Positions 31,501-54,107 are shown, counted from the first letter of the stretch. The stretch is 56,373 nt of DNA from a virus (IMGVR_UViG_3300029319_007099:1-56373); one strand, 5' to 3'. Translations and numbers: made by a program. The notes: generated by a model from the sequence alone, not told the origin.

Positions 31501-32745
31501 ATGGAAAAACTAAAGATTTTATGTTGCCCAGCCAATGATGGTGGGTGCAGTTATTACAGGGCTTGGTCACCTTTTGCTAAACTTGCAGAGAAGTTTCCTG
31601 ATTTAATTGAACTTCGGTTCGACAAAAATCCTCTAGGACTAGACCCAGAAAAAGGTCAGTGGGACGAGAGTTTTGATTTTGAAAATATGAAGTGGGCAGA
31701 CATTGTTATGACTCAAAACATCTGCAACTGGGGTGGTCCTTACACTGCTCGCATTGTAGGTAAGGCAAAAGAGTTTGGCAAGTTCGTACATTTCGATACT
31801 GATGACCTTCTAACCGAGTTGTATGATGGACACAGACTAAAGCAAGTTTATGAGGAGCGAGGGCTTTCAGATATAACTAAATTCATTTACGCTAACTCAG
31901 ATTTAGTTACGGTCACACAAAGAAAGTTTGCTGAAAGAATACATGAGTATTGTGGTGGTGTTTTAGCCGTTATCAAGAACGCTATTGATTATAATCTGCC
32001 TTGCTGGAATGTTCCTAAGTCTAGACCTAGAAAGAAGAGAGTTGTTAGGATAGGCTGGGCAGGAGGTATTCACCATGAGGAGGATGTAAAGGAATTCGCT
32101 GGAGTGCCTCACTTTGTTAACCAGCGCGTTGGAAAAGAGAATGTTGAATGGCACTTCTTCGGTCGCCCACCCCGAGTTCCTGGTGAAGAGCAGACTGATG
32201 AGTGGCAGTTTGATGTGTGGAAAAACTACCAACGAATTCTGTTGCAGGGATTTAAAGGCGCAAACAATTGGTTCATTCATGATGCCATGTCTACAGATAG
32301 GTATGGAGAAATATTCTCTCATGTTGATCTTGCCATTGCACCTTTACAGATGAATGCTTTTAATGATTCTAAATCAGAGATTAAGGTCGCTGAATGTGGC
32401 AGATACAAGATACCTTTAGTGGCCTCGAATGTTGGCTGTTATGATGAAACAATTAAAAACGGAAAGACAGGGTATTTGATAGATCCAGGCGCACCACCTA
32501 AAGATTGGGTTAATACTCTAACGAAGATAATCAAAAACCCAAAACATAGATTAGAGATGGGACAGAACTTACATAATCTTACAGAGGAATACTTTGATTT
32601 GAATAAAGTAGTAAGGTCCCGTTTGGAGTTGTATAGAGATGCTTTCGACTTGAGAGGTGCGAAAGATCTTCATGAAAAAATGTGTGCTTTGTTAGGGGAA
32701 GGGAGCCCCGAGACTTATGATTTACCAGTGTTACCCAAAAAGTGA
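31501..32745 (+). CDS. GT-B glycosyltransferase (GT4-like)
   Basis: GCSYYR, DTDD, IGWAGG..H and DLAIAPL..NAFNDSKSEIKVAE..IPLVASNVGCY. Confidence 0.88.
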   Translation: MEKLKILCCPANDGGCSYYRAWSPFAKLAEKFPDLIELRFDKNPLGLDPEKGQWDESFDFENMKWADIVMTQNICNWGGPYTARIVGKAKEFGKFVHFDTDDLLTELYDGHRLKQVYEERGLSDITKFIYANSDLVTVTQRKFAERIHEYCGGVLAVIKNAIDYNLPCWNVPKSRPRKKRVVRIGWAGGIHHEEDVKEFAGVPHFVNQRVGKENVEWHFFGRPPRVPGEEQTDEWQFDVWKNYQRILLQGFKGANNWFIHDAMSTDRYGEIFSHVDLAIAPLQMNAFNDSKSEIKVAECGRYKIPLVASNVGCYDETIKNGKTGYLIDPGAPPKDWVNTLTKIIKNPKHRLEMGQNLHNLTEEYFDLNKVVRSRLELYRDAFDLRGAKDLHEKMCALLGEGSPETYDLPVLPKK

Positions 32746-33532
32746 ACATAAAAAGGACTTGTTCAAGGAGGGTCCTTACAAGGGTTTCGGCTTGGAGCCT
32801 GGAGTGAATAAACTATTAACTTTGAATTGTCCTGAGCTAAGAGATCCTAAGACAAGAATGCAGTTGACAGAGTATGCTTGTTTTTTGTGGCATTGGAGAA
32901 ACCCTGGGTATGATACTGATACTTGGTTTGGGACCACTTCTTTTAGGCAGTTAGATAAGTTTCCCCATATATTCAAATCTAAGGATGAGATCAGAGACTT
33001 ATTGGCTGATAATAAAATTGTTGGGTGGGGTGAGTACGATTGTTACGCAGTAACTAGAAAACCGTCTCCTAAGATGATAGAGGATCATGGATTAAAGGTG
33101 AACAATCTACCTGATGATGGCGCTTTTGCGATACCCATATCCCTCAAAGAGCAAGCTGATTTATGTCACCCAGGAATCAGCGACTACATTGAGTTCATGT
33201 TTAAGAAGTTTGGTCATACGATCCCTGATGATTGGAGTAAAGTGACCCGAGGCTTTTATGCAAACTACTGGGTTATGAGTAAAGAGTTATTGAATGATTT
33301 CATGAACTTCTCTTGGCCTATGGTGAAGTGGAGTCTGGAGAATATAGAGATAACTCATTACTATAATATTCAACCTGTTTATGGAACTGTGAGCAACAAT
33401 AAGGCTACGGGATACTTCATGGAGAGATTATTTATGCTCTGGTATCTGTCCAGGGGGATTACACCCTATAACCCTTCCGAACCCAGCCAACTAATGAACA
33501 AGTACGAATGGGAGGGGGATTATGCTGAATAG
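32717..33532 (+). CDS. DUF4422/GT111-like putative glycosyltransferase
   Basis: LTEYACFLWHWRN, FGTTSFR, ANYWVM and GYFMERLF parallel the DUF4422 pattern. Confidence 0.5.
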   Translation: MIYQCYPKSEHKKDLFKEGPYKGFGLEPGVNKLLTLNCPELRDPKTRMQLTEYACFLWHWRNPGYDTDTWFGTTSFRQLDKFPHIFKSKDEIRDLLADNKIVGWGEYDCYAVTRKPSPKMIEDHGLKVNNLPDDGAFAIPISLKEQADLCHPGISDYIEFMFKKFGHTIPDDWSKVTRGFYANYWVMSKELLNDFMNFSWPMVKWSLENIEITHYYNIQPVYGTVSNNKATGYFMERLFMLWYLSRGITPYNPSEPSQLMNKYEWEGDYAE

Positions 33533-34406
33533 TTACTGCACCTTATCAGATATAAATTATTTGGACCGAGGTTTAGCATTGTACACATCCTTATGTGAGC
33601 ATTCGACAGATAAGCCTTGGATTTTGAGTTACCTTTGTTTGGATGATGAGTCTTACAAGAAATTAGTTCAGTTAGATCTACCTTATATGCATGTTTATCA
33701 TATCGAACAGTTTGATATAAATGAAGACTTGAAAGAGGCAAAAGGTAACAGGGATAGGAAAGATTATATCTTTACTTTGGCATCATACTTCAGCGACCAC
33801 TTATTAAACTCTTTGGGTCATGACAGTATCTTCTACATGGATTCTGACATTTATTTTTATGATGATCCACAAACCATTATTGATTGCTGCGATGAGAAGG
33901 ATTGTGGCATAATGCTGCACAGACACAACTTTGTGGGGCATAGAGATGGAGGCTTCAATGTTGGGGTGGTGTGGTTTAAAAACTCTGATAAAGGTAAAGA
34001 GATTTTGTCTTGGTGGAAGAACGCTGTGCTAAAAAAGGAGCCAAAGGAGCTTTCGATCATGGGAGATCAGAAGTATTTGGAAGCATTCATTCCTATGTTT
34101 GGAGAGGATTCAGTTAAGATTATTGATGAGGACATAGGACATGGAGCCCCTTGGAACTTTAGGCTTTATGTTTATGATGATTTCAAAGACAAAGGAATCA
34201 TAGGATGGGGTGACAAAAAACAGAAGTTGGTGTTCAATCACTTCTCACAATTCTGGTATGATTTGAATGAGAAGAAGATTTCATTTGATAACAATGTTTA
34301 TGGTCACCTGACATATAATGGTGCTGTCTTCATGGTTCCCGAGGTTTATGGTATGTATGAGGGTTACTTTTCAGCGTTAGCGGAGGTTAAAGAAAAATGG
34401 CTTTAA
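33522..34406 (+). CDS. GT-A glycosyltransferase (nucleotide-diphospho-sugar transferase)
   Basis: YMDSDIYF DxD motif, FNVG, GDQKYL, APWN and HFS. Confidence 0.85.
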   Translation: MLNSYCTLSDINYLDRGLALYTSLCEHSTDKPWILSYLCLDDESYKKLVQLDLPYMHVYHIEQFDINEDLKEAKGNRDRKDYIFTLASYFSDHLLNSLGHDSIFYMDSDIYFYDDPQTIIDCCDEKDCGIMLHRHNFVGHRDGGFNVGVVWFKNSDKGKEILSWWKNAVLKKEPKELSIMGDQKYLEAFIPMFGEDSVKIIDEDIGHGAPWNFRLYVYDDFKDKGIIGWGDKKQKLVFNHFSQFWYDLNEKKISFDNNVYGHLTYNGAVFMVPEVYGMYEGYFSALAEVKEKWL

Positions 34407-35284
34407 AAATAGCTTTTGGTATGATTGTGTTTGAGGGCGATTATGTTTTACATGAGGCGCTAGAATCTGTTTACCCATACGCAGAACAGATACTTATTGC
34501 AGAGGGTCCAGTGCAGTTTTGGCAAGATAGAGGTAAGGTAACATCTACAGATAAAACGAATCAAATAATTGATAACTTTCCTGATCCTGAGGGTAAGATC
34601 TCCATTGTTCACGGACAGTTTGCCGAAAAAGATGAGCAGTGTAGAGCATACATGCCGTTCTTAAATGATGATATAGATTACATTTGGAATCTTGATTCTG
34701 ATGAGGTATTCAAAGGCGAAGATATCGAGAAGATAATTGAAATTTTGGAGAAAGAAAAGTACACTTCTGTGGGCGTCAGAAGCTGTTCTTTTTACGGCGG
34801 GTTCAACCATTACATAAGTGGTTTCGAGCAAATGAAGGACAATTTTTTGCGGATTTTTAAGGTATATCCTGGGGCAAATTGGCTCACGCACAGACCACCG
34901 ACAATAGTGGCTCCCGAGGGAGTTGAGACTTTGCCAGAGAAACACTTAGATAGCGAAACTTTGTGGAGAGATCACGGTGTACAGATGTACCACTACTCTT
35001 ATGTTTTCCCAACTCAAGTAAAGAATAAGTTAGAATATTACAAGGCCAAAGTTAGTAAGCAGTATTGTCACCCTAATTACTTTGATGATATTTATTTACC
35101 GTGGGTAACAGGCAACCGAGAGGTTGAGAAAGCTTGGAAAGGTGTGCATGAGTTTAATCCTAATATAAGAATGCACTCTTTTACAGAAGAGTTTAGTGGC
35201 TCTCATCCTGTAGCAATACTTAAGAGTATGGACAAATTAACAACGAGATTACATGACGAATTACAAAGATTCTTGGAAGAATAA
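34397..35284 (+). CDS. GT2-like glycosyltransferase
   Basis: MIVFEG, STDKT, WNLDSDE and HYSYV. Confidence 0.8.
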   Translation: MALKIAFGMIVFEGDYVLHEALESVYPYAEQILIAEGPVQFWQDRGKVTSTDKTNQIIDNFPDPEGKISIVHGQFAEKDEQCRAYMPFLNDDIDYIWNLDSDEVFKGEDIEKIIEILEKEKYTSVGVRSCSFYGGFNHYISGFEQMKDNFLRIFKVYPGANWLTHRPPTIVAPEGVETLPEKHLDSETLWRDHGVQMYHYSYVFPTQVKNKLEYYKAKVSKQYCHPNYFDDIYLPWVTGNREVEKAWKGVHEFNPNIRMHSFTEEFSGSHPVAILKSMDKLTTRLHDELQRFLEE

Positions 35285-35879
35285 AAAAGTTTTTGAGGCT
35301 CAACTCGCCCTCAATGAAAAAGAGTTAGACGCTTATCCCTTCCATTGGAATTGCTTTTTGGCTGCCATGGGGTTCTTAAAAGATAAGCCTAAATCGTTTT
35401 TAGATTTAGGTTGTGGATGCGGCGTGTTCTCTCAGATTTGCAATACGCACTTTCCTGAAATGCAATACAAAGGTGTTGATTATGCACAGGAGGCAATCGA
35501 AACAGCAGCTAAAAGATGGGGAGATTCAGACTTTATTTGGGAAGTTAAAAACTATAATGATTTATGTGGCGATGATCTAAATTTCGATGTCCTACACGCT
35601 GGCGCTATGTTGGATGTTCTGCCTGACGCAGATGAGGCCTTGAGTCATTTGTGTCAATTAGGTTATGAGAATCTAATTTTTGGTAGGATGAAAATTATTG
35701 GAGAGGACAGCAGGGTTGAAACATATGAGGCTTACGATTTAATAACAACTTATGCATTCTACCACAACCAGGACTATCTTCATAAAACACTCCAAAGCAA
35801 CGGCTATCACTACGCTGTTGTGGGAAACCCAGACAACGCCACCGTGGTTGCATCAAAAAAGGAATTAACTTTTGATTAA
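35253..35879 (+). CDS. Class I SAM-dependent methyltransferase
   Basis: FLDLGCGCG, YKGVD and FDVL. Confidence 0.88.
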   Translation: MTNYKDSWKNKKVFEAQLALNEKELDAYPFHWNCFLAAMGFLKDKPKSFLDLGCGCGVFSQICNTHFPEMQYKGVDYAQEAIETAAKRWGDSDFIWEVKNYNDLCGDDLNFDVLHAGAMLDVLPDADEALSHLCQLGYENLIFGRMKIIGEDSRVETYEAYDLITTYAFYHNQDYLHKTLQSNGYHYAVVGNPDNATVVASKKELTFD

Positions 35880-36783
35880 TTTATTTAATTTAAATAATTA
35901 CACCGTAGACTTAGGATCTTTTGATCATCATTTACATGGAAGCATAGTCACCGAGTTTGAACAAGAATTTTGTTCTTATGTCGGTGCAAAGCATGGCTGC
36001 GCTTTGAGCAGTGCCACAAATGCCATTTTTTTATCTTTGTTAGGCAAGAACACTGAGGTTACAATACCAAGTCTAATACCTCCTGTTGTGGCGAATGCAA
36101 TCGTGAATTCAGGCAATAAGGTAGCATTCAGAGACCAGATTTCATGGGTGGGTGATAGTTATCTTTTACACAACTTTGGTGATTATAAGATAGTTGATTC
36201 TGCACAAAAGGTCGAAAGAAACCAATTCGCTCAATGTGATCCGCAAGATCTTATGTTTTTTAGTTTTTACCCCACAAAACCTGTAGGTGGCATTGATGGG
36301 GGTATAATCGTTTCCGACGATGAAGAAAAGATTAATTGGTTTAGGGAGGCGTCGATGAACGGCATGAGCTACGCAGTACACAACTGGGAGAGAAAGCAGA
36401 AGTTCCCAGGGTGGAAGATGTACATGAACTCTTCACAAGCGTATGTGGCGCTTCAAAACCTTAGAAAACTAGACGAGAAGAAGCGTCGGCTGGCAGTAAT
36501 CAGACTAAGGTACAATAGACACTTTAATGAGGTCAACACCAGCGACCATCTGTATAGAATAAATGTAACTGATAGATCAACTGCAATGCAAACTCTTAAG
36601 GAGAAAGGCATTGTGTGTGGAATCCACTATGAGCCTCTACATAAGTCCGAAGTATTTTTTAGTGACGATTCTCTGCCTTGGTCGGAGAATGAAGCAAAAA
36701 CAACAATGAGCATTCCTTTTCACGAAGCCATGACAGATGAAGAGGTCGATAAGGTGATCACCGAAGTTGGTAAATTTATCTAA
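35872..36783 (+). CDS. DegT/DnrJ/EryC1/StrS PLP-dependent sugar aminotransferase
   Basis: FEQEF, SSATNA, DSAQ, SFYPTK (PLP Lys), DGG, GIHY and SIP. Confidence 0.9.
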   Translation: MINLFNLNNYTVDLGSFDHHLHGSIVTEFEQEFCSYVGAKHGCALSSATNAIFLSLLGKNTEVTIPSLIPPVVANAIVNSGNKVAFRDQISWVGDSYLLHNFGDYKIVDSAQKVERNQFAQCDPQDLMFFSFYPTKPVGGIDGGIIVSDDEEKINWFREASMNGMSYAVHNWERKQKFPGWKMYMNSSQAYVALQNLRKLDEKKRRLAVIRLRYNRHFNEVNTSDHLYRINVTDRSTAMQTLKEKGIVCGIHYEPLHKSEVFFSDDSLPWSENEAKTTMSIPFHEAMTDEEVDKVITEVGKFI

Positions 36784-37336
36784 AAGCATAGCTTTGGTAG
36801 GATCTAGTGATATCCTTCTGGATAATGATTATGGAGACTTGATAGACTCGCATGACCAAGTTGTAAGATTTAATAATGCCATTGTCACAGGCTATGAAAA
36901 ACATGTAGGAGCGAGAACTGATATTAGGGTTTCCAACCCTCATGTTTTTGATGATCACCCTGATCACCACATTCATGATGTTAGACCAGGGAGTTTAAAG
37001 CATCGGCAGGACAATCCTGAGGAGAAGTATGATTTAGTTCACGCTAATTCCTACAGACAGCCCTTATTACTGCATACTCTAACTCATGGAATACCTGAAT
37101 GCCCTACCGCAAAGCAAATCCAGAAGGAGTACACAGTGGGCACCAGTTTCGTCATACTGTGTGTGTTAGAGGGGATAGTTCCTAGTCTTTTTGGATTTAG
37201 TTTGGATATGGATAGGAGAGGAACACATTATTGGCAAGATAGAGAAGCCCCCAACATGGTTGGACATGATCAACTACAAGAACAGCAACTTCTACGGGAG
37301 TTGTCGCAAGCTAAAAAGATAAAGGTTTACCAATGA
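36767..37336 (+). CDS. GT29 sialyltransferase-family glycosyltransferase
   Basis: Sialylmotif L (IALVGSS.IL...YG..IDSHDQVVRFNNA...GYEKHVGART), S (TVG...LC.....LFGF), III (HYW) and VS (HDQLQE). Confidence 0.85.
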   Translation: MVNLSKSIALVGSSDILLDNDYGDLIDSHDQVVRFNNAIVTGYEKHVGARTDIRVSNPHVFDDHPDHHIHDVRPGSLKHRQDNPEEKYDLVHANSYRQPLLLHTLTHGIPECPTAKQIQKEYTVGTSFVILCVLEGIVPSLFGFSLDMDRRGTHYWQDREAPNMVGHDQLQEQQLLRELSQAKKIKVYQ

Positions 37337-38229
37337 CAAAAACAGTTATTCCCATCCCTCCCTCTTTTAACAAAGGGGGTCTCATGATAGAACATCACCA
37401 AACCTTTGAGTATCTCCAATGGTTATACTCAAAAGGGATAGATGAAGTTATGACAACCGCAGGAACATCTCAATTCAATATGATGAATAATCAGGAGATT
37501 TGTCATTTTAATGAGACTGTTGGCGCGTGTTTTCCAGGAAGAAAGATTTTAGGTGTTCCTGCATACAACACCTTTGACATGCAGATTTTCATAGACGATA
37601 TCAAAGGTAAAGAGATAAAAAACGCATGTTTTATGCTTCTTTATCCTGATAGATTTTATGACACCGAAACACTAGTTGATTATTTTAAAGCAGGTAGCGA
37701 TGCTTCTGAGGGTCCAGTGTATTTGCATGACATGGGTATGCGTAATGGAACTGGAGGTTCTTGGGAATACACTGCTGACTTGATAAATGATATGTATGCT
37801 CAAGGAATCATAAAAGGTATTAAGGAGGAGCATTCCACACTAGATTCTGCTTTTAAGTTTGTAAGTAGGTTGGATGAGGGCCTCGATGTCATCGTTGCAG
37901 GAGGAAGCATGAGAAGACATCAATTCCTTCGACACGCAGGGGCTAATGCCTTTTTGGGTGGGATAGGTAATTTAGCACCAGAGGTCGAGCTTGAATACTG
38001 CTCTTTAGTGGATCAAGAGTACACCAAAGAAGCTAAAGAGGTCGATTTCTTATTGCAGAAAGAAACTACCCTGTTTGAAACTTTTATGAAATTTGGATGG
38101 CACAGATCTTTAAGAGAAGGAATATCACAAATAGGATGTGGGTGCGACTATGATAGAATGCCTTGGCCTAAACGCGACGATTTTTTCAAGGCTGAGATAA
38201 AAAATTGTCTGGAGAAAACAATAAAATGA
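37333..38229 (+). CDS. DapA/NanA-family class I aldolase
   Basis: TTAGTSQF (GTTGE-like), GIKEE Schiff-base Lys and GGIGNLAP. Confidence 0.75.
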   Translation: MTKTVIPIPPSFNKGGLMIEHHQTFEYLQWLYSKGIDEVMTTAGTSQFNMMNNQEICHFNETVGACFPGRKILGVPAYNTFDMQIFIDDIKGKEIKNACFMLLYPDRFYDTETLVDYFKAGSDASEGPVYLHDMGMRNGTGGSWEYTADLINDMYAQGIIKGIKEEHSTLDSAFKFVSRLDEGLDVIVAGGSMRRHQFLRHAGANAFLGGIGNLAPEVELEYCSLVDQEYTKEAKEVDFLLQKETTLFETFMKFGWHRSLREGISQIGCGCDYDRMPWPKRDDFFKAEIKNCLEKTIK

Positions 38230-39032
38230 AAGATAAAGTATGGCTTCTAGGTCCCTGCTCTTTGGAGGATAGGGACACATTTATGTTTACATTAAGCATG
38301 ATTAGTGCTGAAATGACACCTGAAGATGATTGGTACATGAAAGCCAGTTTCGATAAGGCGAATAGAACATCTTTACATGGAGGTCGAGGCCCTGGCTTAG
38401 ACTACTGTAAGGATGTATGGGCAGAAGCTAAGGAGTTATACCCTGGCACTAAGTTCATTACGGATGTTCACGAAACCCATCAAGTTGAGCAGTTAGTGGG
38501 CCATGTGGATGCTATTCAGATCCCTGCGTTCTTAGGTAGGCAGACAGACTTAATTGTTGAGTGCGCCAAGCATTTCGATAAGATTAACATTAAGAAAGGG
38601 CAGTGGTTAGGCCCTAACAACTTGATTAAGTCTGTGGATAAAGTAAAAGAGGTTAATCCTGATTGCGAGGCTTGGATTTGCGACAGAGGCACCAATTTTG
38701 GTTACTATGATCTTTTCGTGAATTTTGGAATCGTTGATGAGCTTAAAAAATATTATGATAAGGTCATACTCGATTGCACTCATGCGACTCAAAGATCTAG
38801 GGGTGTTTACGGCAAACAAGGAGATCCTATTCTAGCGGAGAGGTACTTCATGGCTGCAAACCTCTTTAATTACGATGGTGTTTTCGCAGAGATTCACCCT
38901 AGACCTAATGATGCGGTCTCAGATGGAGATTGTCAATTAAGCGTCTCACAGTTCAGAGAAGTCTTGAAAAAGACGAGAATGATTGACGCTCTCCCACCTG
39001 TGGGTAGGCATCATAGAGTTGTGGGGGACTAG
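38226..39032 (+). CDS. kdsA: KDO 8-phosphate synthase family, metal-dependent type
   Basis: GPC, KASFDKANRTS, TDVHE, QIPAFLGRQTDL, NIKKGQ, DCTHATQ and EIHP..SDG. Confidence 0.92.
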   Translation: MKDKVWLLGPCSLEDRDTFMFTLSMISAEMTPEDDWYMKASFDKANRTSLHGGRGPGLDYCKDVWAEAKELYPGTKFITDVHETHQVEQLVGHVDAIQIPAFLGRQTDLIVECAKHFDKINIKKGQWLGPNNLIKSVDKVKEVNPDCEAWICDRGTNFGYYDLFVNFGIVDELKKYYDKVILDCTHATQRSRGVYGKQGDPILAERYFMAANLFNYDGVFAEIHPRPNDAVSDGDCQLSVSQFREVLKKTRMIDALPPVGRHHRVVGD

Positions 39033-39698
39033 TTGAGACGGTTAGCTGTAATTCCCGCAAGATCAGGCTCAACCAGACTAAAGAATAAGAACACATTCCC
39101 TTTAGGAGGGAAGCCTCTTATTCGTTGGATGACTGAGGCTGTTATTAACTCTAAGTGTTTTGATAAAGTTATCATCTCGACAGACGGATCACACATCTTT
39201 GATGCTGTAGAAGATTTGCCTGTCGAGAGGCACTACAGACCCGACAGCCATGCCACAGTTAGGGCAACCGTACTTGATGCCATGATAGATCTCATGGAAG
39301 GTGTGCAAGAGGAGTATGATGTTTTCTCTTATTTCCTTCCTACCTGCCCGTTCATTAGTCCGTTGGACATTGTGAAGGGCGTAGAAGCTTTGGATCCTAG
39401 CACAGACACCGTTATTAGCATGACTGAAATTCCAGAGACACTACAACTTGCCTGTGTTATGAAAGATGATTGGGTTTTGCCTGTCTATGATAATTTAGAA
39501 CTGGGAATGACAAATAGCAAGTTCCTAAAGAAGTATTACAAACCCTCTGGTGCGTTTTACATGGGGTGGTGGGACACAATCATACAGAATAGAAACTTTT
39601 TTAAGGGCAGCACCAAAGGAGTTCGCATCCCTCAAGAGAGATCAATAGATATCAACGACATCTATGACATACAATTAGCAAATAATTTATTAACATGA
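39033..39698 (+). CDS. CMP-ulosonate synthetase (NeuA/acylneuraminate cytidylyltransferase family)
   Basis: IPARSGSTRLKNKN, ISTD, PTCPF, GAFY and SIDIND. Confidence 0.9.
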   Translation: MRRLAVIPARSGSTRLKNKNTFPLGGKPLIRWMTEAVINSKCFDKVIISTDGSHIFDAVEDLPVERHYRPDSHATVRATVLDAMIDLMEGVQEEYDVFSYFLPTCPFISPLDIVKGVEALDPSTDTVISMTEIPETLQLACVMKDDWVLPVYDNLELGMTNSKFLKKYYKPSGAFYMGWWDTIIQNRNFFKGSTKGVRIPQERSIDINDIYDIQLANNLLT

Positions 39699-40879
39699 CA
39701 AAAGAAACATTTCTTGATCTTGGCTTTCAGCCGATAGCAAACGGCTTCCTAAAAGAGGGTGAAACCGACAACGAGTTTTTCTTCCCTTTAGAGGTCGCGT
39801 TAGATGAGGACACCTTTCTGGTGACTCAAAAAGAGTATGTGTCACCAGAGAAGATGTTTAACGACACTTACGCTTATAGAGGGTCAATGTCCAAAACAAT
39901 GGTTGAGCATTTTAAAAATATTTCGATGACTTTGGGTGCTTACCTAGACCCAAACCCTAAAGTTCTAGAGATAGGTAGCAATGATGGTGTTTTCATCAAG
40001 AACTGGGGCACAGAAACAACTTACGCTGTTGAACCTTGCGGTAACTTTGCCAAGGAAACAAATGATCTGGGTTACAAGACTTACAGCAGGTTTTGGAACA
40101 AAGATTTATCTAACGATATTGTAGCCGAAGTAGGGACCATGGACTTGGTGTTTGCTGCAAACTGTATGTGCCATATTCCTGATTTGGAGGAGACTTTTGG
40201 CGCTGTTGCGAATGTTCTCGACAAAGAGGGCTTGTTTGTTTTTGAAGACCCCTCTTTGGCTAAGATGATAAACCTAAACTCATACGACCAAATTTATGAT
40301 GAACACGCGCACATCTTTTCTGTTCTGGCTCTTAAAAATGAATTAGAAAAAGTAGGCATGAGAATCATTCGCGTGGATGAGCTTTCGGTGCATGGTGGAT
40401 CTAATCGAATCTGGGCTGTACATCAGGATTCTTCTTGGGTTGAAAACAGTAGTGTTTCTCAAGCGTTATCTTTTGAGAGGCTTTTAGGGTTAGACATGCT
40501 AGAGGTTTACGATAGGTTTAGCACAAGAGTGGCTCAATCAAAGTTAGATCTACAGACTCTTTTGTGGTCATGTAAAGATAATGGACATAAGGTGATCAGT
40601 TATGGTGCTACATCAAAATCAACAACAATTTTTAATTATTGCGATATTGGTTCAGAGTTGATTGATTACATCGTAGACACTACACCAGAAAAGCAAGGTA
40701 AGCTCTCTCCAGGTACGCACATTCCCATTACAAAACCTTTAGGGTTGATTGAAGATGATATTAATTATTGCTTCTTGGGTGCTTGGAACTTCATGGATGA
40801 GATATCCAAAAAAGAATCAGCTTTTCTGGAGCGCGGTGGTAGGTTTATCACTCATGTTCCAATCGTGAGGTTCGTGTGA
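39695..40879 (+). CDS. NDP-sugar C-methyltransferase
   Basis: DLGFQPIAN, EIGSNDG, YDQIYDEH, HGGS, YGATSKS, VDTTPEKQG and AWN. Confidence 0.9.
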   Translation: MTKETFLDLGFQPIANGFLKEGETDNEFFFPLEVALDEDTFLVTQKEYVSPEKMFNDTYAYRGSMSKTMVEHFKNISMTLGAYLDPNPKVLEIGSNDGVFIKNWGTETTYAVEPCGNFAKETNDLGYKTYSRFWNKDLSNDIVAEVGTMDLVFAANCMCHIPDLEETFGAVANVLDKEGLFVFEDPSLAKMINLNSYDQIYDEHAHIFSVLALKNELEKVGMRIIRVDELSVHGGSNRIWAVHQDSSWVENSSVSQALSFERLLGLDMLEVYDRFSTRVAQSKLDLQTLLWSCKDNGHKVISYGATSKSTTIFNYCDIGSELIDYIVDTTPEKQGKLSPGTHIPITKPLGLIEDDINYCFLGAWNFMDEISKKESAFLERGGRFITHVPIVRFV

Positions 40880-41295
40880 GTGAGTTAATAGAAAAACCTG
40901 TCTTTCAAGACATTCAGTATCATGAGGATGACAGAGCCCAGAGGTACTTAAATGTTTTCCCTCATATAGAAGGACAATTAAATGTTTCGTTTGTTAATTC
41001 AACGAAGCATATAGTTGCTTGGCATAAACATGACATACAAAGTGATTTTTGGTGTTGTTTAAAAGGTTCATTTAAAGTTGGTTTAGCCACTGACGATGGA
41101 TCTATAAGGTGGGAGTATCTGTCAGAGAAAACTAATAAGGTGTTGGAGATTCCACCTGGGGTGTATCATGGCTACAAGGCTTTAGAGCCAAACTCTATCT
41201 TGATGTATCACTTGACGCATAAATACAATCCTAAGGATGAGATTAGAGCAAAGGTAGGTGCGTTTGGCGAAAAATGGGAAACAGAAAACAAGTAA
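40876..41295 (+). CDS. RmlC-like cupin (NDP-4-keto-sugar 3,5-epimerase family)
   Basis: HEDDR, AWHKH..Q.D and IPPGVYHGY. Confidence 0.8.
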   Translation: MSELIEKPVFQDIQYHEDDRAQRYLNVFPHIEGQLNVSFVNSTKHIVAWHKHDIQSDFWCCLKGSFKVGLATDDGSIRWEYLSEKTNKVLEIPPGVYHGYKALEPNSILMYHLTHKYNPKDEIRAKVGAFGEKWETENK

Positions 41296-41705
41296 CCGTT
41301 GATGATGTTCAGTTTTACAACATGAGAACTGTTGTGGATGAGAATGGCAATCTGACCCCGATACAATCGAATGAGGCTTTACCGTTCTCTATTCAACGAG
41401 TTTTTTATGTTTATGGTGTAAGGAGTGAGGAACTTCGTGGTTGTCACGCTCACTACGAAACAAAACAGCTTCTTATTTGTTTAAACGGTAAGATACAGGT
41501 GATTTGTAAAGACGGCGAGAATGAGAGACAATTCCTTCTTGAGTCCCCACAACAAGCACTTTATGTGCCTGAAATGATTTGGGATGAGCAGTTGTATAGA
41601 TCGGAGGATTCAGTTTTGCTGTCTATTTGTAGTACAAAGTGGGATCCTAGCGATTACATACACAATTATGATGAGTTCAAAAAGATAAAAGGTTCTTTAG
41701 AATGA
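41274..41705 (+). CDS. FdtA/QdtA-family sugar 3,4-ketoisomerase (cupin)
   Basis: DENGNL, PFSIQRVFYVY, RGCHAH and YIHNYDEF. Confidence 0.88.
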   Translation: MGNRKQVTVDDVQFYNMRTVVDENGNLTPIQSNEALPFSIQRVFYVYGVRSEELRGCHAHYETKQLLICLNGKIQVICKDGENERQFLLESPQQALYVPEMIWDEQLYRSEDSVLLSICSTKWDPSDYIHNYDEFKKIKGSLE

Positions 41706-42607
41706 GGATACTAGTTACAGGTGGTTGTGGGCACATAGGCTCAAAGTTTATTAGAAGTTACAAGAAGCACGATCTTACCGTTGTTGATAATTTATCGACT
41801 CAAAGATACTGCTCTTTGTTTTCTTTGGATAGGAACATCAAGTTTTTTAATTTAGATTTCGGTGACTTGACGCTTGATTATTTGAAGCAGTTTGATGTCG
41901 TTATTCACCTAGCAGCCATAACAGATGCACCAAGTACATTCAAAGATCCTAGTCTTTTGGAAAAAACTAATGTTGAAAAGACTAAGAGGTTCTTTGATAC
42001 TTGCCGTCTTGCTGGATGTAGGGTCATTTTTCCTTCCTCCACCAGTGTATATGGAAAAGCAGTTGATGAAGTGTTTGAGGATGATGAATCTGCACTCAAC
42101 CCACAAAGCCCGTATGCGGAGGCTAAGATTAACATAGAAAACTACCTCAGAGCCAATGATGGTAGGTTTACTATTTTGCGTTTTGGCACCATCTTCGGTT
42201 ATAGTGAGGGTATGAGGTTTCATACAGCTATAAACAAGTTTTGCTTTCAGGCAGCACTAGGAGAACCGCTAACTGTGTGGAAACAAAACTATGAACAATA
42301 CAGACCTTACTTAGGACTCAACGATTGTGTTGATGCTTTATCTTTGTGTATAGACAACGAGGACTTGGTAGGATCACAAGAAACTTACAATGTTTTGTCT
42401 ACCAATACTAGGCTGAAAGACATAGTTAGTTTCATAACAAAGGTTAAGTCTGTGAAGGTTAATTATGTTGATACGCCTTTGTTGAATCAACATTCGTATT
42501 TTGTTAATGATGATAAGATTAAATCTTTAGGGTTTTGTCCTGAGGACGATCTGTTTCATTCAATCTCAAAAACCTTGAAAGCTTTATCAGGCATAGACAA
42601 TGCGTAA
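41702..42607 (+). CDS. NAD-dependent sugar epimerase/dehydratase (extended SDR)
   Basis: GGCGHIG, HLAA, SSTSVYG and YAEAK. Confidence 0.9.
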   Translation: MRILVTGGCGHIGSKFIRSYKKHDLTVVDNLSTQRYCSLFSLDRNIKFFNLDFGDLTLDYLKQFDVVIHLAAITDAPSTFKDPSLLEKTNVEKTKRFFDTCRLAGCRVIFPSSTSVYGKAVDEVFEDDESALNPQSPYAEAKINIENYLRANDGRFTILRFGTIFGYSEGMRFHTAINKFCFQAALGEPLTVWKQNYEQYRPYLGLNDCVDALSLCIDNEDLVGSQETYNVLSTNTRLKDIVSFITKVKSVKVNYVDTPLLNQHSYFVNDDKIKSLGFCPEDDLFHSISKTLKALSGIDNA

Positions 42608-43334
42608 GTTATTGATTACTGGTGGTGCAGGTAAACTCGCTAGACAGATAATAAATAAGAACCGTGGTCAGTACAAAATTTATGCACCTAATAGAGATTA
42701 CATGGATCTAACTTGCGCTGATTCAGTCAGAGATTATATAAGTAAGATCAATCCTGATATAGTGCTTCATGCAGGTGCCTACACCAGACCCATGAACAAG
42801 CACCAGGAAAACGCTGACATAAGCATAAAAACTAATATCATAGGAACTTGCAATGTAGTTTTAGCTTGCATGGAGCGCAGTTGTAAATTAGTGTACATAT
42901 CTACAGATTATGTTTATCCTGGGACTGATGGAGACTATGACGAAAACAGCCCTTTATCTCCGTACACAGGCAATAACGATGGGCTAACTAAATACGGCTG
43001 GTCTAAACTTGGAGGCGAATGTGCGGTCAAAATGTATGATAATTCGTTGATTTTGAGAGCTTGTATATGCGACAAGCCTTTCCCACACAAGAAAGCCGCA
43101 ACAGATGTCAAGAAGAGCTTGCTTTTTAATGATGAGGCTGCTGAGATTATACTAAAACTACTAAATGAAAAGGGTATAATAAATGTGGGTGGAGAAGCAA
43201 GAACTGTTTATGATTTTGCACATGAACACGACTCTACGACACAAAAATTAAGTAAAGAAGATATTGATGATGTCAACATTGCACCAGACACGACGATGAA
43301 CATCACAAAAATGAGAAGCTTGATAAAGAAATGA
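42600..43334 (+). CDS. RmlD-like NDP-4-keto-sugar reductase
   Basis: TGGAGKLA, HAGAYT, YISTDYVY and YGWSKLGGE. Confidence 0.88.
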   Translation: MRKLLITGGAGKLARQIINKNRGQYKIYAPNRDYMDLTCADSVRDYISKINPDIVLHAGAYTRPMNKHQENADISIKTNIIGTCNVVLACMERSCKLVYISTDYVYPGTDGDYDENSPLSPYTGNNDGLTKYGWSKLGGECAVKMYDNSLILRACICDKPFPHKKAATDVKKSLLFNDEAAEIILKLLNEKGIINVGGEARTVYDFAHEHDSTTQKLSKEDIDDVNIAPDTTMNITKMRSLIKK

Positions 43335-43942
43335 CACAAATAAGATTAAATTTAGGTTGTGCATCTAGGTTGCTCCCAGACTACATCAACATAGACATGG
43401 ACTCATTGGATGAAATTAAGAGACGCTATCCAAACATCCAGGTTCCTGACAATATTGCTTTCTTGGTGGGTGATGCACTGAATTTAGATTTTGATGATGA
43501 ATCGGTGGATGAGGTAAGAGCAGATGCGTTGTTAGAGCACTTCTCTTTTTTAGAAGAGCCTAAGTTTTTTAGAGAAGCAGCAAGAGTGTTAAAGCCAGGA
43601 GGTGTTTTGCGATTCTCTGTTCCTGATTTTGAAGACGCAGTTCGTAAGTGGTTAGATGCGGAAGACGATTGGAAGGACTTCTTTAGAAATGATGACGAAG
43701 CTATAGAAAACAAACATTGGTTTGGTAACTACTCGTACTCCACAGAAAACAGGTGGGGTTATTTAATGGCAAGTATTTTCGGTCCACAGAATGGAGAAGG
43801 GCAGTTCCACAAGAACGCTTACACGGAGAAGAAAATTGAAGCCATATGTCAAGTCCTAGGTTTTGGACAACCTAAGATAGATAGGTTTTTATGGAAAGGT
43901 GATCGAGACCTAATGCTTGAAGTTGAGATGAGAAAGTTATGA
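43331..43942 (+). CDS. SAM-dependent methyltransferase (type 11-like)
   Basis: LNLGC, LEH and RVLKPGGVLRFSVPD. Confidence 0.88.
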   Translation: MTQIRLNLGCASRLLPDYINIDMDSLDEIKRRYPNIQVPDNIAFLVGDALNLDFDDESVDEVRADALLEHFSFLEEPKFFREAARVLKPGGVLRFSVPDFEDAVRKWLDAEDDWKDFFRNDDEAIENKHWFGNYSYSTENRWGYLMASIFGPQNGEGQFHKNAYTEKKIEAICQVLGFGQPKIDRFLWKGDRDLMLEVEMRKL

Positions 43943-45093
43943 GTTTAGTTAGAGACAATTTAACTGTTATTGTTACGATTAGAAACCGTCGTAATACACT
44001 TCCTCGCGTTATGAATTACTACAAGAATTTTCCTGCGCGAGTTATATTTTTAGATAGCACTCAAGGCCCTGCTTATGAAAAAGCGTTCACTGCTGCACCT
44101 AACGAATATAGGCATGTTCCAGGTAAGACATATGTGCAAAAGATAAATGATTGTTTGCAGGAGGTTGACACAAAATACTCAGTGGTAGTTTGTGATGATG
44201 ATTTTTTAGTTGGTGAGGGTCTTCAATATTGCATTGAGTTCCTAGAGAAACATGACAATTATGTTGCTTGCAGAGGACAAGAAGTTGCCCTATTAAATAA
44301 TTTCATGAGCTTTGAGACTTTGGATTATTTGGTGGAGAGGTTTGATCTTTTTGAGAGCGATGATGTTAAGGAGAGAGTGTACAGAGCATGGACTTACTTT
44401 AATGGAGCTAATGTTCACAATATTATGAGAACTGAAGTTCAAAAAAAGATTCAAGAGTTTCATCTGCAACATGACCATTACAATGCAATGATGATCTACG
44501 ATAAAACACTTACATTTGTCACAGCGTTGCATGGAAACATCGCCACCCTACCTGTTTTTTACATAGTTAGAAGCGATGAACAGGCAGCAACATCCTTAAA
44601 TGCTGAGAATAGTGTTTATAATAATGAAGGAATTAAGGACGCTAAAAGTATAAAGAAGGACATACAGCAAGCCGCTGAAAAGATAACTGATTGGAAACCA
44701 CACCTTAAATTTAGAAAAGATTTTTTGGATTTAGATAGTGAGGCTTTAGAGAAAGCAGCAGGGATCAGTAGGGATTTGATTGTGGAGATGCATCAGAATC
44801 TGTGTTCTGGAAAAGTTCGGGACGCTAGAATGCAGGAGATCATGAATGATAATGATATTTTTTATCCTTGCATGAATAAATTTCATGGTATGCCTCTCCT
44901 ATTTCGCCCAGGTGCAGGAGGCGACCTATTAGGGCCTGAAGCCGCATACAACGACAAAGATAAAAAACATGAATACTTTACGAGCTTTAGAAACGGGGGT
45001 CAAAAAGCAAAGGACATGTATCCAGTTTTAACAGGAAAAAACTTATTAGCTTTGAATGACATAATTAAATGTGTAAAAAGATTTCCCCTATGA
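43939..45093 (+). CDS. GT2-like glycosyltransferase (TIGR00180-like)
   Basis: TIRNR, LDST, VDTKYSVVVCDDDF and YVACRG. Confidence 0.75.
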   Translation: MSLVRDNLTVIVTIRNRRNTLPRVMNYYKNFPARVIFLDSTQGPAYEKAFTAAPNEYRHVPGKTYVQKINDCLQEVDTKYSVVVCDDDFLVGEGLQYCIEFLEKHDNYVACRGQEVALLNNFMSFETLDYLVERFDLFESDDVKERVYRAWTYFNGANVHNIMRTEVQKKIQEFHLQHDHYNAMMIYDKTLTFVTALHGNIATLPVFYIVRSDEQAATSLNAENSVYNNEGIKDAKSIKKDIQQAAEKITDWKPHLKFRKDFLDLDSEALEKAAGISRDLIVEMHQNLCSGKVRDARMQEIMNDNDIFYPCMNKFHGMPLLFRPGAGGDLLGPEAAYNDKDKKHEYFTSFRNGGQKAKDMYPVLTGKNLLALNDIIKCVKRFPL

Positions 45094-45989
45094 AAACACA
45101 CCAAATTTTTAGTGACTTATGGAAGTCTAAAGAGAATGTGAAGACCAGACCTCATTATGTAAGAAACATTATCATGGTAAATGCTGATGAGTTTGTTGAA
45201 AAAGTATTGAATGCAGATGAAAGCGAGGCATCTGATTTAGTAGATTCCATTTATTCTGGTGATGCTTACATATTAAAAGATGCTTTTGGTAGCGAGTTTG
45301 TTGAAGATCTGAAACATAAAGTATATCAGTGGTCAATAAATACTGAAAATAAGTCTTATGAGATGCGTGATGGTTGCCCAGACTATCATTGTGTTTATGA
45401 TACTCCTCAAGGTCCCGCTGGAGGCTACACTAGTTTAGAACACTCGTATGTCTTCTTTCGACATAACAAAAACCCTTTAAATGTTTTTCATCCTTTAGAA
45501 AAGTATTGGGCAGCGATTAAAGTTTTAAGTGGTCAAACACAAGATGCATACAAAAACAATGTTCCCTCTGATGGCTTGATTGATAGAATTACTTTTTTGC
45601 AATATCCCATAAATAAAGGGAAAATAACTAAACATTTTGATTCACCTAAAGCACAAAAGGTTTTGTTAGGTATGCTTATGTCTCAAATAGGTGAAGATTA
45701 TGATTATGGTGAAAATGGTTTTTATCTAGTTGATAAAAAAGACAGAAGAGTACACCTAGAAAACTTGTGCAAAAAGGGTGATTTTATTTGCGTGTATCCC
45801 ACTATGTATCACGGTGTTCCTACGGTGACAAAAATTGATCGTGGGCTTAGACAGAGGTGGGATAGTCCTGACGGGCGTTGGTATTTACAGTGCTATACAG
45901 CCGAATCACATGAGGTTGAGGGACGCGAATATTCTACAGCGGTACGAGACGAGGCTGGTCATGGACCAATGGCAAATCATATAAAGTAA
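45090..45989 (+). CDS. 2OG-Fe(II) dioxygenase
   Basis: QYP..G.ITKHFD (HxD), GDF, YHGV and a distal RW. Confidence 0.75.
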   Translation: MKTHQIFSDLWKSKENVKTRPHYVRNIIMVNADEFVEKVLNADESEASDLVDSIYSGDAYILKDAFGSEFVEDLKHKVYQWSINTENKSYEMRDGCPDYHCVYDTPQGPAGGYTSLEHSYVFFRHNKNPLNVFHPLEKYWAAIKVLSGQTQDAYKNNVPSDGLIDRITFLQYPINKGKITKHFDSPKAQKVLLGMLMSQIGEDYDYGENGFYLVDKKDRRVHLENLCKKGDFICVYPTMYHGVPTVTKIDRGLRQRWDSPDGRWYLQCYTAESHEVEGREYSTAVRDEAGHGPMANHIK

Positions 45990-54100: not shown

Positions 54101-54107
54101 AAAAACA

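What the first reader, a model, noticed from the sequence alone, without database searches (positions are those of the whole stretch)
35872..39698. Phage-encoded 'make, activate, transfer' module for an ulosonic (Kdo/sialic-like) sugar, built around a GT29 sialyltransferase-family enzyme
Seen: five overlapping or abutting genes encoding a DegT aminotransferase, a compact 189-aa GT29 protein with sialylmotifs L, S, III and VS and no membrane anchor, a DapA/NanA-like aldolase, KdsA and a NeuA-type cytidylyltransferase. Known: GT29 is mainly a eukaryotic Golgi family that uses CMP-activated ulosonic acids; bacteria usually use GT38/42/52/80 for sialic acids and WaaA (GT30) for Kdo; KdsA condenses PEP with an aldose phosphate. 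Inference: the phage makes its own 2-keto-3-deoxy acid, CMP-activates it and transfers it. KdsA is paired with a NeuA-like rather than KdsB-like synthetase, there is an extra aldolase and an aminotransferase, and no KdsD, KdsC or NeuB is visible. This suggests a non-standard, possibly aminated, Kdo-like sugar.
Basis: partly seen in the sequence, partly recalled or inferred. Interest (0 to 1): 0.9.

Follow-up and report, generated by a model that had tools for sequence, protein, structure and literature searches.

The report
Phage Kdo-type sugar module with GT29
A marine phage carries genes to make, CMP-activate and attach a Kdo-like acidic sugar using a small bacterial/viral relative of animal sialyltransferases, and this gene set turns out to be a widespread, swappable cassette in ocean phages.

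Summary
Five overlapping or abutting + strand genes encode a short DegT aminotransferase, a 189-aa soluble GT29-like transferase, a divergent DHDPS/NanA-fold protein, a KDO8P synthase and a NeuA-like cytidylyltransferase. They lie inside a 17-kb glycan island of a distant T4-like marine myovirus contig. GT29 membership is supported by Pfam (77 bits), a family profile against ST3Gal-I (E 3e-29), all four sialylmotifs, and a confident model whose significant PDB matches are sialyltransferases.

The "make, activate, transfer" reading is supported by comparison, not biochemistry. Among 125 distinct GT29 loci, 24 carry KdsA, 26 carry NeuB, and none carries both. The aldolase-like gene sits directly before KdsA in 23 of 24 loci. 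Its tree splits cleanly by synthase type, while the CMP-synthetase and GT29 trees do not. Phage contigs 98.4% identical in DNA differ only by an Aldo+KdsA versus NeuB+Aldo swap.

The "aminated Kdo" idea is not supported. DegT travels with FdtA (8 of 10 loci) and probably serves a neighbouring deoxysugar pathway. Bacterial GT29-like proteins and viral KdsA+NeuA pairs are already published. I found no paper on phage GT29 cassettes. The sugar's exact identity and the acceptor remain unknown.

The parts
36767..37336 (+). Compact soluble GT29-like glycosyltransferase (189 aa). Proposed to transfer a CMP-activated ulosonic acid.
   Evidence: PF00777 scores 77.4 bits against a cut-off of 23. A profile of 60 relatives matches ST3Gal-I at E 2.9e-29, and all 8 PDB sequences found are GT29 sialyltransferases. 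Residues H154, Y155, H167 and E172 are nearly invariant. The AF2 model has pLDDT 93. Its listed Foldseek PDB matches at E<=1e-3 are GT29 enzymes plus CstII.
37333..38229 (+). Divergent DHDPS/NAL-fold class I aldolase-like protein ('Aldo-K'), always paired with KdsA.
   Evidence: The single sequence scores below the Pfam cut-off. The family profile against PDB DHDPS gives E 1.4e-9. The model (pLDDT 92.5) matches DHDPS and NAL at TM about 0.83. Lys164 is invariant. His132 aligns to the catalytic Tyr of DHDPS. The gene lies directly upstream of KdsA in 23 of 24 loci.
38205..39032 (+). KDO8P synthase (KdsA), metal-dependent type. The probable start is ATG 38226.
   Evidence: PF00793 scores 117 bits. 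NF003543 scores 216 bits, below its cut-off of 242. The best PDB match is Aquifex KDO8PS at 155 bits, with GPC, FDKANR, IPAFLxRQTDL, THxxQ and E-H-P...SD aligned. A 268-aa environmental copy is 100% identical.
39033..39698 (+). NeuA/PseF-like CMP-ulosonate synthetase (cytidylyltransferase).
   Evidence: PF02348 scores 84.8 bits. PseF scores 108.5 bits (cut-off 205.7), while the best KdsB model scores 52 bits. In PDB, NeuA matches at 72 bits over the full length and KdsB at 47 bits or less over the N-terminus only.
35872..36783 (+). Short DegT-family PLP aminotransferase (303 aa). Probably the FdtB-like partner of FdtA, not part of the ulosonate module.
   Evidence: PF01041 scores 124 bits. The PLP lysine motif FSFYPTK aligns with solved DegT enzymes, and about 60 residues are missing between query residues 88 and 117. 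DegT is adjacent to FdtA in 8 of the 10 loci that hold both.
33522..35879 (+). Nucleotide-diphospho-sugar transferase-like GT, a GT2 and a SAM methyltransferase. This conserved run precedes GT29 in related phage islands.
   Evidence: Pfam calls are. The run NucTr-GT2a-MT208-GT29 occurs in 16 unique loci. MT208 directly precedes GT29 in 25 of 125 unique loci.
39695..43334 (+). Second pathway for an NDP-linked branched or amino deoxysugar: C-methyltransferase, WbuC/FdtA-like cupin, FdtA, SDR and RmlD-like genes.
   Evidence: Pfam and NCBIfam calls are: PF08484 E 7.7e-47, PF05523 E 1.7e-44, PF01370, PF04321.
46920..47600 (+). PhyH-type Fe(II)/2OG dioxygenase. In relatives it often lies next to the CMP synthetase, so it may tailor the ulosonate.
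   Evidence: PF05721 E 1.3e-12. It is adjacent to CMPs in 6 of the 12 loci that hold both.
31501..48625 (+). Whole glycan island of 21 co-directional genes, none with a membrane-spanning segment.
   Evidence: Gene calls are. A 13-bp-stem terminator-like hairpin lies at 31463-31492, just upstream.

Best explanation
The phage carries its own donor-supply-and-transfer module for an eight-carbon 2-keto-3-deoxy acid, either Kdo or a close derivative.

Proposed steps:
1. KdsA condenses PEP with an aldose 5-phosphate, most likely host arabinose-5-P, to give an octulosonate 8-phosphate.
2. The DHDPS-fold partner (Schiff-base Lys164, with His132 in place of the usual Tyr) acts directly on the synthase's substrate or product. 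My best guess is a reversible pyruvate-type aldol step on the phosphorylated octulosonate, which would reset C4 stereochemistry.
3. The phosphate is removed by the host KdsC or by a roughly 105-aa mini-HAD. That mini-HAD is encoded in relatives but is missing from this window.
4. The NeuA-like enzyme makes the CMP-sugar.
5. The compact, soluble GT29-like enzyme transfers it, with inversion, onto a glycan built by the neighbouring GTs and methyltransferases.

Shown here: gene identities, folds, motif conservation, recurrent synteny, and cassette exchange between KdsA/Aldo-K and NeuB/Aldo-N.

Inferred: every catalytic step, the sugar's identity, and the acceptor (a virion protein or a host surface glycan).

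DegT belongs to a separate FdtA-type amino-deoxysugar pathway in the same island.
For: Gene identities.

Folds.

Recurrence: 59 IMG/VR loci hold a compact GT29 relative. In the metagenome scan 160 stretches encoded a relative, of which the best 80 were kept.

Counts among 125 distinct GT29 loci:
- KdsA in 24, NeuB in 26 (the cluster representative matches PF03102), both in 0.
- Aldo directly before KdsA in 23 of 24.
- CMP synthetase in 18 of 24 KdsA loci and 23 of 26 NeuB loci.
- Of the 49 loci with ample flanks, 27 carry one of the two synthases.

Trees: Aldo separates KdsA-linked from NeuB-linked copies with a single change (support 98*). The CMP synthetase tree needs 7 changes and the GT29 tree needs 9.

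Cassette swap: L137 and L127 are 98.4% identical in flanking DNA. One has Aldo-K+KdsA where the other has NeuB+Aldo-N. L043 and L026 show the same swap between flanks 83-85% identical.

L003 repeats the island gene for gene over the 18 genes it reaches, 17 of them at 70-88% aa identity and GT2b at 41%.

The mini-HAD carries DxDxT, WTARG, GKP and DDK motifs. It is found in 10 of 24 KdsA loci and 9 of 26 NeuB loci.

Precedent: plant GT29 proteins are proposed CMP-Kdo transferases (PMC11288761, listing and start of abstract only). CroV pairs KdsA with a NeuA-like synthetase (PMC9614988, passages read).
Against: - No enzyme was assayed, and no GT29 member has a proven Kdo activity.
- KdsA, the CMP synthetase and DegT all score below NCBIfam equivalog cut-offs, so specificities may differ from the textbook enzymes.
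- The window's CMP synthetase lies in a clade of 3 KdsA-linked and 3 NeuB-linked copies. Nearly identical GT29s pair with either synthase. Either both enzymes are promiscuous or the two cassettes give similar sugars.
- 22 of the 49 well-flanked GT29 loci have neither synthase. These include 9 bacterial loci and many viral loci that match only the N-terminal motif.
- The window lacks KdsD, KdsC and the mini-HAD.
- The role proposed for Aldo is a guess.
- The loci were collected with one or two peptide patterns. Only + strand ORFs of 70 aa or more were clustered. Many loci are truncated, and near-copies are counted separately.
Confidence: 0.62

Rival explanations
1. One reading: all five genes form one pathway, and DegT aminates the octulosonate to give a Kdo8N-like sugar before activation and transfer.
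For: DegT overlaps GT29 in the window and directly precedes it in L003 and L112. From recall, Shewanella makes Kdo8N with a DegT-like KdnA.
Against: DegT directly precedes FdtA in 8 of the 10 loci that hold both. It is present in only 7 of 24 KdsA loci, and just as often in NeuB loci (6 of 26). No Fe-ADH oxidase is in the window. The island holds FdtA, a C-methyltransferase and SDRs, which together need such a transaminase.
Confidence: 0.1
2. GT29 and the NeuA-like synthetase handle a nine-carbon nonulosonic acid taken from the host pool. KdsA and Aldo only boost host Kdo/LPS supply and are unrelated to the transferase.
For: The synthetase is NeuA/PseF-like. Near-identical GT29s work beside NeuB in sister phages.
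Against: KdsA and NeuB are mutually exclusive next to GT29: 0 of the 50 loci with either synthase hold both. They replace each other at the same position. A large CMP-synthetase clade is almost wholly KdsA-linked, 13 of 14.
Confidence: 0.12
3. The block is an ordinary bacterial LPS or capsule locus recently captured from the host, or a bacterial fragment mis-binned as viral.
For: Compact GT29-like genes exist in bacterial genomes, including Opitutales MAGs, Halomonas urumqiensis and a Pelagibacteraceae SAG. One Opitutales MAG contig carries NeuB-CMPs-Aldo-N-PhyH.
Against: The window carries phage head, sheath and replication genes on both sides of the island. 43 distinct IMG/VR loci hold the GT29, and 10 of them hold KdsA. 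None of the 15 bacterial loci has Aldo or KdsA near GT29, and the four that align over most of the protein are 32% identical or less. None of 301 genomes sampled from the phylum of G001 matched Aldo at E<=1e-8. The top 120 KdsA relatives are all unnamed environmental proteins.
Confidence: 0.05

Closest known systems
Animal GT29 sialyltransferases (porcine ST3Gal-I 2WNF/2WML, ST6GalNAc2, ST8SiaIII, ST6Gal1)
   Same: They share Pfam family PF00777 and sialylmotifs L, S, III and VS, aligned residue for residue. They also share the GT-A variant fold.
   Different: The phage protein is 189 aa against about 270-320 aa for the animal catalytic domain. It has no TM anchor or stem. It lacks the motif-L cysteine (IALVGSS against CAVVGNS), so the L-S disulfide cannot form. 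It is cytoplasmic and phage-encoded, and its donor is presumed to be an octulosonate.
Bacterial GT29-like sequences (Petit et al. 2018, PMC5811610; passages read)
   Same: They lack the TM segment and the conserved cysteines but keep all four motifs, and many are from marine bacteria. Their function is unknown.
   Different: That paper's main text contains no word beginning 'virus' or 'phage'. Here the gene is phage-borne and tied to KdsA or NeuB cassettes. Supplementary lists could not be opened, so overlap with those 23 sequences is unchecked.
Plant GT29 proteins proposed as RG-II CMP-Kdo transferases (PMC11288761; listing and start of abstract only)
   Same: A GT29 member is linked to a Kdo donor.
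   Different: They are eukaryotic Golgi enzymes, and the activity is likewise unproven in vitro as far as I read.
Putative Kdo pathways of the giant viruses CroV and Fadolivirus (PMC9614988; passages read)
   Same: A virus-encoded KDO8P synthase is paired, in CroV, with a cytidylyltransferase that groups with CMP-NeuAc synthetases.
   Different: Those are eukaryotic viruses with fused bifunctional enzymes, and they encode their own API and phosphatase. No GT29 or DHDPS-like partner is reported.
Cyanophage S-SCSM2R kdsA-kdsB (PMC12801897) and a 179-kb TARA viral genome with NeuA and KdsA (PMC5332604); passages read in both
   Same: Marine T4-like phages carry KdsA together with a cytidylyltransferase.
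   Different: In S-SCSM2R no GT29 or Aldo relative was found (tblastn of the phage collection; its KdsA region). Its KdsA is 37% identical to the window's. Neither paper's passages mention a sialyltransferase-like gene.
DHDPS / N-acetylneuraminate lyase superfamily
   Same: The TIM-barrel fold matches at TM about 0.83, and the Schiff-base lysine is conserved.
   Different: Identity is 13-18%. The catalytic Tyr position holds an invariant His. The stretch at residues 190-195, where I recall NAL's GxDE sugar-binding motif, reads GGSMRR. The gene is obligately paired with a PEP-dependent synthase.

Membership tests
CAZy GT29 / Pfam PF00777 | HMM score above the curated cut-off | tested here: met
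   77.4 bits against a cut-off of 23. The six-frame search scores 60.4 bits plus 17 bits. No other Pfam family appears at E<=0.01.
CAZy GT29 / Pfam PF00777 | Sialylmotifs L, S, III and VS with the His/Tyr of motif III and the His...Glu of motif VS | tested here: met
   H154, Y155, H167 and E172 are at least 90% conserved in 60 relatives. They align with HHYWE and HDGDFE of ST3Gal-I. The catalytic roles of these residues are recalled, not tested.
CAZy GT29 / Pfam PF00777 | GT-A variant fold of the solved sialyltransferases | tested here: met
   The model has pLDDT 93. Foldseek E values run from 3e-8 to 3e-4, to ST3Gal-I, ST6GalNAc2, ST8SiaIII, ST6Gal1 and CstII. The next listed hit has E 0.32.
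CAZy GT29 / Pfam PF00777 | Type II membrane topology and the conserved motif L-motif S disulfide | tested here: not met
   There is no N-terminal hydrophobic segment. The motif-L Cys is replaced. Published bacterial GT29-like proteins show the same (PMC5811610).
CAZy GT29 / Pfam PF00777 | Inverting transfer from a CMP-activated ulosonic acid | not testable with these tools
   Only genomic linkage to CMP synthetases is available: 44 of 125 loci, a lower bound.
KDO8P synthase (KdsA) | Family HMM and equivalog cut-offs | tested here: inconclusive
   PF00793 scores 117 bits, above its cut-off of 25.5. NF003543 scores 216, below 242, and TIGR01362 scores 202, below 314.
KDO8P synthase (KdsA) | KDO8PS-type substrate and metal motifs, as opposed to DAHPS | tested here: met
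   The alignment to Aquifex KDO8PS preserves GPC, FDKANR(T)S, IPAFLGRQTDL, THATQ and E-H-P..A-SD. 40 of the 43 PDB matches are KDO8PS, and DAHPS scores only 46 bits. The roles of these motifs are recalled.
CMP-ulosonate synthetase (PF02348) | Family HMM, and the subfamily (NeuA/PseF versus KdsB) | tested here: inconclusive
   PF02348 scores 84.8 bits, above its cut-off of 22.6. PseF scores 108.5, below 205.7, and KdsB models score 52 or less, below 155-281. PDB NeuA matches over the full length, ahead of KdsB.
DHDPS/NAL class I aldolases (PF00701) | HMM above the cut-off | tested here: not met
   16 bits against a cut-off of 22.1 for the window protein. Many relatives do carry PF00701, and the profile search is significant.
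DHDPS/NAL class I aldolases (PF00701) | Schiff-base lysine and catalytic tyrosine | tested here: inconclusive
   Lys164 is invariant in 22 KdsA-linked and 15 NeuB-linked copies. The Tyr133-equivalent column holds an invariant His132.
Kdo8N pathway (KdnA/KdnB; recalled) | An Fe-dependent alcohol oxidase alongside the aminotransferase | tested here: not met
   PF00465 is absent from the window, while the control rings in 13 of 14 genomes. The window is about 28% of the genome.

The most novel reading that the evidence does not exclude
Marine phages carry a modular ulosonic-acid glycosylation system. A minimal, soluble GT29 and a NeuA-like synthetase accept whichever sugar a swappable two-gene cassette delivers: KdsA+Aldo-K for eight carbons, or NeuB+Aldo-N for nine. 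The His-variant DHDPS-fold partner is a new enzyme class that remodels the freshly made ulosonate phosphate, for example by C4 epimerisation, giving sugars not yet described. The products decorate virions or the infected cell surface. Phages would then be a large reservoir, and possibly a vector, of the GT29 fold from which eukaryotic sialyltransferases arose.
Probability: 0.3. Interest if true: 0.85.

Novelty: new variant of a known kind. Interest (0 to 1): 0.7.

Why it matters
GT29 is the family of all animal sialyltransferases, and its prokaryotic members have no known function.

This work shows three things about the compact GT29 genes:
- They are common in ocean phage contigs.
- They are physically tied to CMP-sugar synthesis.
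- They sit beside exchangeable Kdo-type and sialic-type synthase cassettes.

That gives a concrete, testable donor hypothesis. It also offers small soluble enzymes for glycoengineering. It points to an uncharacterised DHDPS-fold enzyme that always accompanies the synthase. More broadly, it adds a case of phage-encoded complex glycan synthesis comparable to that of giant viruses, and it bears on the bacterial or viral origin of eukaryotic sialylation.

Tried and rejected
- DNA search against deposited phages: blastn (distant mode) of the five-gene block against 50,697 phage records found no match.
- Aldolase against the same phage collection: tblastn found no match.
- Bacterial survey for Aldo: the phylum of the Opitutales MAG G001 gave 0 of 301 genomes at E<=1e-8. 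This is a sample, and there was no positive control.
- Timing of expression: the T4 late-promoter word TATAAATA occurs 5 times against 3.7 expected, and 34 of 100 shuffles do as well. Sigma-70-like sites number 40 against 47.8 in shuffles. Nothing can be said about timing.
- ESM Atlas search for Aldo: it only repeated the DHDPS assignment and showed phage and Verrucomicrobiota taxa.
- Kdo8N idea: rejected for now, for the reasons given under the rival explanations.
- Aldo as a stand-alone alternative synthase: rejected because it co-occurs with KdsA in 23 of 24 loci and with NeuB in 15 of 26.
- Literature: four full-text searches listed no paper on a phage-encoded GT29, and a fifth on kdsA in phages led to two of the papers below. 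I read passages of PMC5811610, PMC12801897, PMC5332604 and PMC9614988.
- Not used: complex prediction, the look-up of sequencing runs and read laying.

Full report
**What is in the window.**
The window is an IMG/VR virus record. It is linear and CheckV estimates it at 28% of a genome. It encodes a gp23-like major head protein that is 30-32% identical to those of T4-like cyanomyoviruses. It also encodes a tail sheath, a split family-A DNA polymerase, RNR, a DnaB-like helicase, a gp32-like SSB and RecA.

The five ORFs of the finding are exactly as described. They overlap or abut one another. They form the centre of a run of 21 co-directional sugar genes at 31501-48625. In order, these are:
- a GT4;
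- an unknown gene;
- a nucleotide-diphospho-sugar transferase-like GT;
- a GT2;
- a methyltransferase;
- the five genes of the finding;
- a C-methyltransferase;
- two FdtA/WbuC-type cupins;
- two SDRs of the RmlB/RmlD kind;
- another methyltransferase;
- two unknown genes;
- a GT2;
- a PhyH dioxygenase;
- an SDR.

None of the 21 proteins has a membrane-spanning stretch. The one hydrophobic stretch is the buried motif-S core of GT29.

**The GT29 protein.**
- PF00777 is the only Pfam hit, at 77.4 bits against a cut-off of 23.
- An exhaustive phmmer search of 1.84 billion representatives found 1574 proteins at E<=1e-3 and 191 at E<=1e-10. Most are about 200 aa long.
- In an alignment of 60 of them, the motif-L core (VGSS...G..ID...V.RFN), motif S (T.G...FGF), motif III (HYW) and motif VS (H....E) are invariant or nearly so.
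- The profile of that alignment matches porcine ST3Gal-I at E 2.9e-29 across the whole catalytic domain. All 8 PDB sequences it finds are GT29 sialyltransferases.
- The AF2 model is confident, with pLDDT 93.0 and pTM 0.90.
- Foldseek against PDB reports 31 matches at E<=1e-3. Those listed are ST3Gal-I, ST6GalNAc2, ST8SiaIII and ST6Gal1, then CstII (GT42) at rank 29. The next listed hit has E 0.32.
- The animal features that are missing are the type II anchor and the motif-L cysteine. Petit et al. 2018 reported the same for 23 bacterial GT29-like sequences (PMC5811610, passages read).

**The other four proteins.**
- KdsA. Its best solved relatives are KDO8P synthases: Aquifex at 155 bits, and 40 of the 43 PDB matches. 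The metal-ligand Cys and the KANR, PAFLxRQTDL and THxxQ motifs align. DAHP synthases reach only 46 bits. The equivalog cut-offs are narrowly missed.
- The cytidylyltransferase. It resembles NeuA over its full length (72 bits) and PseF (108.5 bits). KdsB models match only the N-terminal nucleotide-binding part.
- The aldolase-like protein. As a single sequence it falls below the Pfam cut-off. A profile of 31 relatives matches DHDPS at E 1.4e-9. The model (pLDDT 92.5) superposes on DHDPS and N-acetylneuraminate lyases at TM about 0.83 with 12-18% identity among the listed matches. Lys164 is invariant. The column of the DHDPS catalytic tyrosine holds an invariant His132. Residues 190-195, where I recall NAL's GxDE motif, read GGSMRR. 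This suggests an anionic substrate, perhaps a phosphorylated one.
- DegT. It keeps the PLP-lysine motif but lacks about 60 residues of the large domain.

**Recurrence.**
L003, another IMG/VR contig, repeats the island gene for gene over the 18 genes it reaches. Seventeen are 70-88% identical in protein sequence and GT2b is 41%.

Pattern scans with a 12-sequence alignment returned three sets of loci:
- 59 viral loci;
- 160 metagenome stretches encoding a relative, of which 80 were kept;
- 15 loci in bacterial genomes.

tblastn with the island proteins hit 145 of the 154 loci for GT29, 59 for Aldo, 30 for KdsA and 51 for the synthetase.

I then called + strand ORFs of 70 aa or more, clustered them, and collapsed loci with identical GT29 proteins. 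This left 125 distinct loci: 68 metagenome, 43 viral and 14 genome.

A 346-aa neighbour cluster is NeuB (PF03102, E 4.8e-39). A 105-aa cluster is a minimal HAD phosphatase.

Counts:
- KdsA occurs in 24 loci, NeuB in 26, and both in none.
- Aldo lies directly upstream of KdsA in 23 of 24 loci. L065 is the exception.
- Aldo occurs in 15 of the 26 NeuB loci.
- The synthetase occurs in 18 of 24 KdsA loci and 23 of 26 NeuB loci.
- The mini-HAD occurs in 10 of 24 KdsA loci and 9 of 26 NeuB loci.
- Of the 49 loci with at least four ORFs upstream and seven positions from GT29 to the locus end, 15 are KdsA-type, 12 are NeuB-type and 22 have neither.
- Those 22 comprise 9 bacterial loci, 12 viral loci, many of which match only the N-terminal motif-L region, and one metagenome locus.

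**Co-variation and cassette exchange.**
On quick IQ-TREE trees, the aldolase-like proteins split into a KdsA-linked side (22 copies) and a NeuB-linked side (15 copies) with one change, at support 98*. The synthetases need 7 changes. The window's copy sits in a starred clade of 3 KdsA-linked and 3 NeuB-linked copies. The GT29s need 9 changes. Related rows share labels, so these counts are descriptive. The contrast within one set of genomes is still informative.

Direct DNA comparison shows the exchange. L137 and L127 are 98.4% identical over 3373 nt (MT208-GT29-C-MTase-SDR) and over 432 nt (cupin). Then L137 carries Aldo-K+KdsA where L127 carries Aldo-N plus a 642-aa NeuB-SAF-xylose-isomerase-like fusion. 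L043 and L026 show the same replacement between flanks that are 83-85% identical.

It follows that the synthase and its aldolase-like partner move as a unit. The transferase and synthetase stay in place.

**DegT.**
- DegT directly precedes FdtA in 8 of the 10 loci that hold both.
- It directly precedes GT29 only in L003 and L112, as it does in the window.
- It is as frequent beside NeuB (6 of 26) as beside KdsA (7 of 24).
- The island also holds FdtA, a C-methyltransferase and SDRs.
- The simplest reading is an FdtB-like transaminase of a separate NDP-deoxysugar route.
- No Fe-ADH of the Kdo8N type is in the window.

**Missing steps.**
NeuB, SIS/KdsD and KdsC family searches of the window are empty, while the controls ring. 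The mini-HAD that lies between the synthetase and the C-methyltransferase in L003 is absent here. Arabinose-5-P, and probably the phosphatase, would have to come from the host or from the unsampled 72% of the genome.

**What is published.**
- Bacterial GT29-like sequences: PMC5811610.
- Plant GT29 as a putative CMP-Kdo transferase: PMC11288761, listing only.
- A putative CroV Kdo pathway with a NeuA-like synthetase: PMC9614988.
- kdsA-kdsB in cyanophage S-SCSM2R: PMC12801897.
- A 179-kb TARA viral genome with NeuA and KdsA: PMC5332604.

In the INPHARED collection, only 4 of 50,697 records hold a KdsA relative. One holds a GT29 relative. None holds Aldo. The one GT29 record, the unannotated 484-kb LR756508.1, has four GT29-like stretches around a NeuB and a mini-HAD. 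My searches found no paper on phage GT29. Supplements were closed.

**Conclusion.**
The make-activate-transfer reading is well supported by comparative genomics, and an octulosonate of the Kdo type is the likeliest sugar. The aminated-sugar inference is not supported.

- the abundance and modular exchange of these cassettes in marine phages;
- the strict pairing of a His-variant DHDPS-fold enzyme with the synthase.

Noticed in passing
window 39695-43334 plus 35872-36783: There is a second sugar pathway: a C-methyltransferase (PF08484), a WbuC/FdtA-like cupin, FdtA, an SDR and an RmlD-like protein. With DegT these look like a route to an NDP-linked, C-methylated 3-amino-3,6-dideoxyhexose. No nucleotidyltransferase is in the window, although relatives carry one (cluster c37, PF00483).
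   Followed up: partly
L003 12630-12947; absent from the window at 39695: A mini-HAD phosphatase of about 105 aa (motifs DxDxT, WTARG, GKP, DDK) recurs in 30 of 125 GT29 loci. In the window it is missing exactly where its closest relative L003 has it.
   Followed up: partly
L127 12809-14737; L026 10594-12447: In some phage cassettes NeuB is fused to a SAF domain and a xylose-isomerase-like TIM barrel (617-642 aa). This hints at an extra sugar isomerisation step.
   Followed up: no
L159 (LR756508.1 312839-338036): An unannotated 484-kb uncultured phage genome has four GT29-like stretches flanking a NeuB and a mini-HAD.
   Followed up: partly
L157 (G002 contig C73, Opitutales MAG): NeuB-CMP synthetase-Aldo-N-PhyH lie in a row on a short contig of a bacterial MAG. 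This mirrors the phage NeuB-type modules. It could be bacterial or a mis-binned phage fragment.
   Followed up: no
window 46920-47600 and related loci: A PhyH-type dioxygenase lies directly beside the CMP synthetase in 6 of the 12 loci that hold both. It may hydroxylate the ulosonate. Related islands also carry sulfotransferases and TylF/CmcI-type O-methyltransferases.
   Followed up: no
window 54023-54834: A cluster of four tRNA genes: Ile-TAT, Asn-GTT, Leu-TAA and Arg-TCT.
   Followed up: no
window 19258-20274 and 21253-22374: The family-A DNA polymerase is split into two ORFs that match successive parts of the same PHROG profile, about 1 kb apart, with other ORFs between them.
   Followed up: no
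window 31463-31492: A strong terminator-like hairpin (13-bp stem followed by a T run) lies immediately before the first island gene. No comparable one lies inside the island.
   Followed up: no
L008 (Pelagibacteraceae single-cell genome): GT29-like, CMP synthetase and NeuB genes lie side by side, with a second synthetase-NeuB pair 8 kb away. This is a possible clue to hosts or donors of the phage genes.
   Followed up: no
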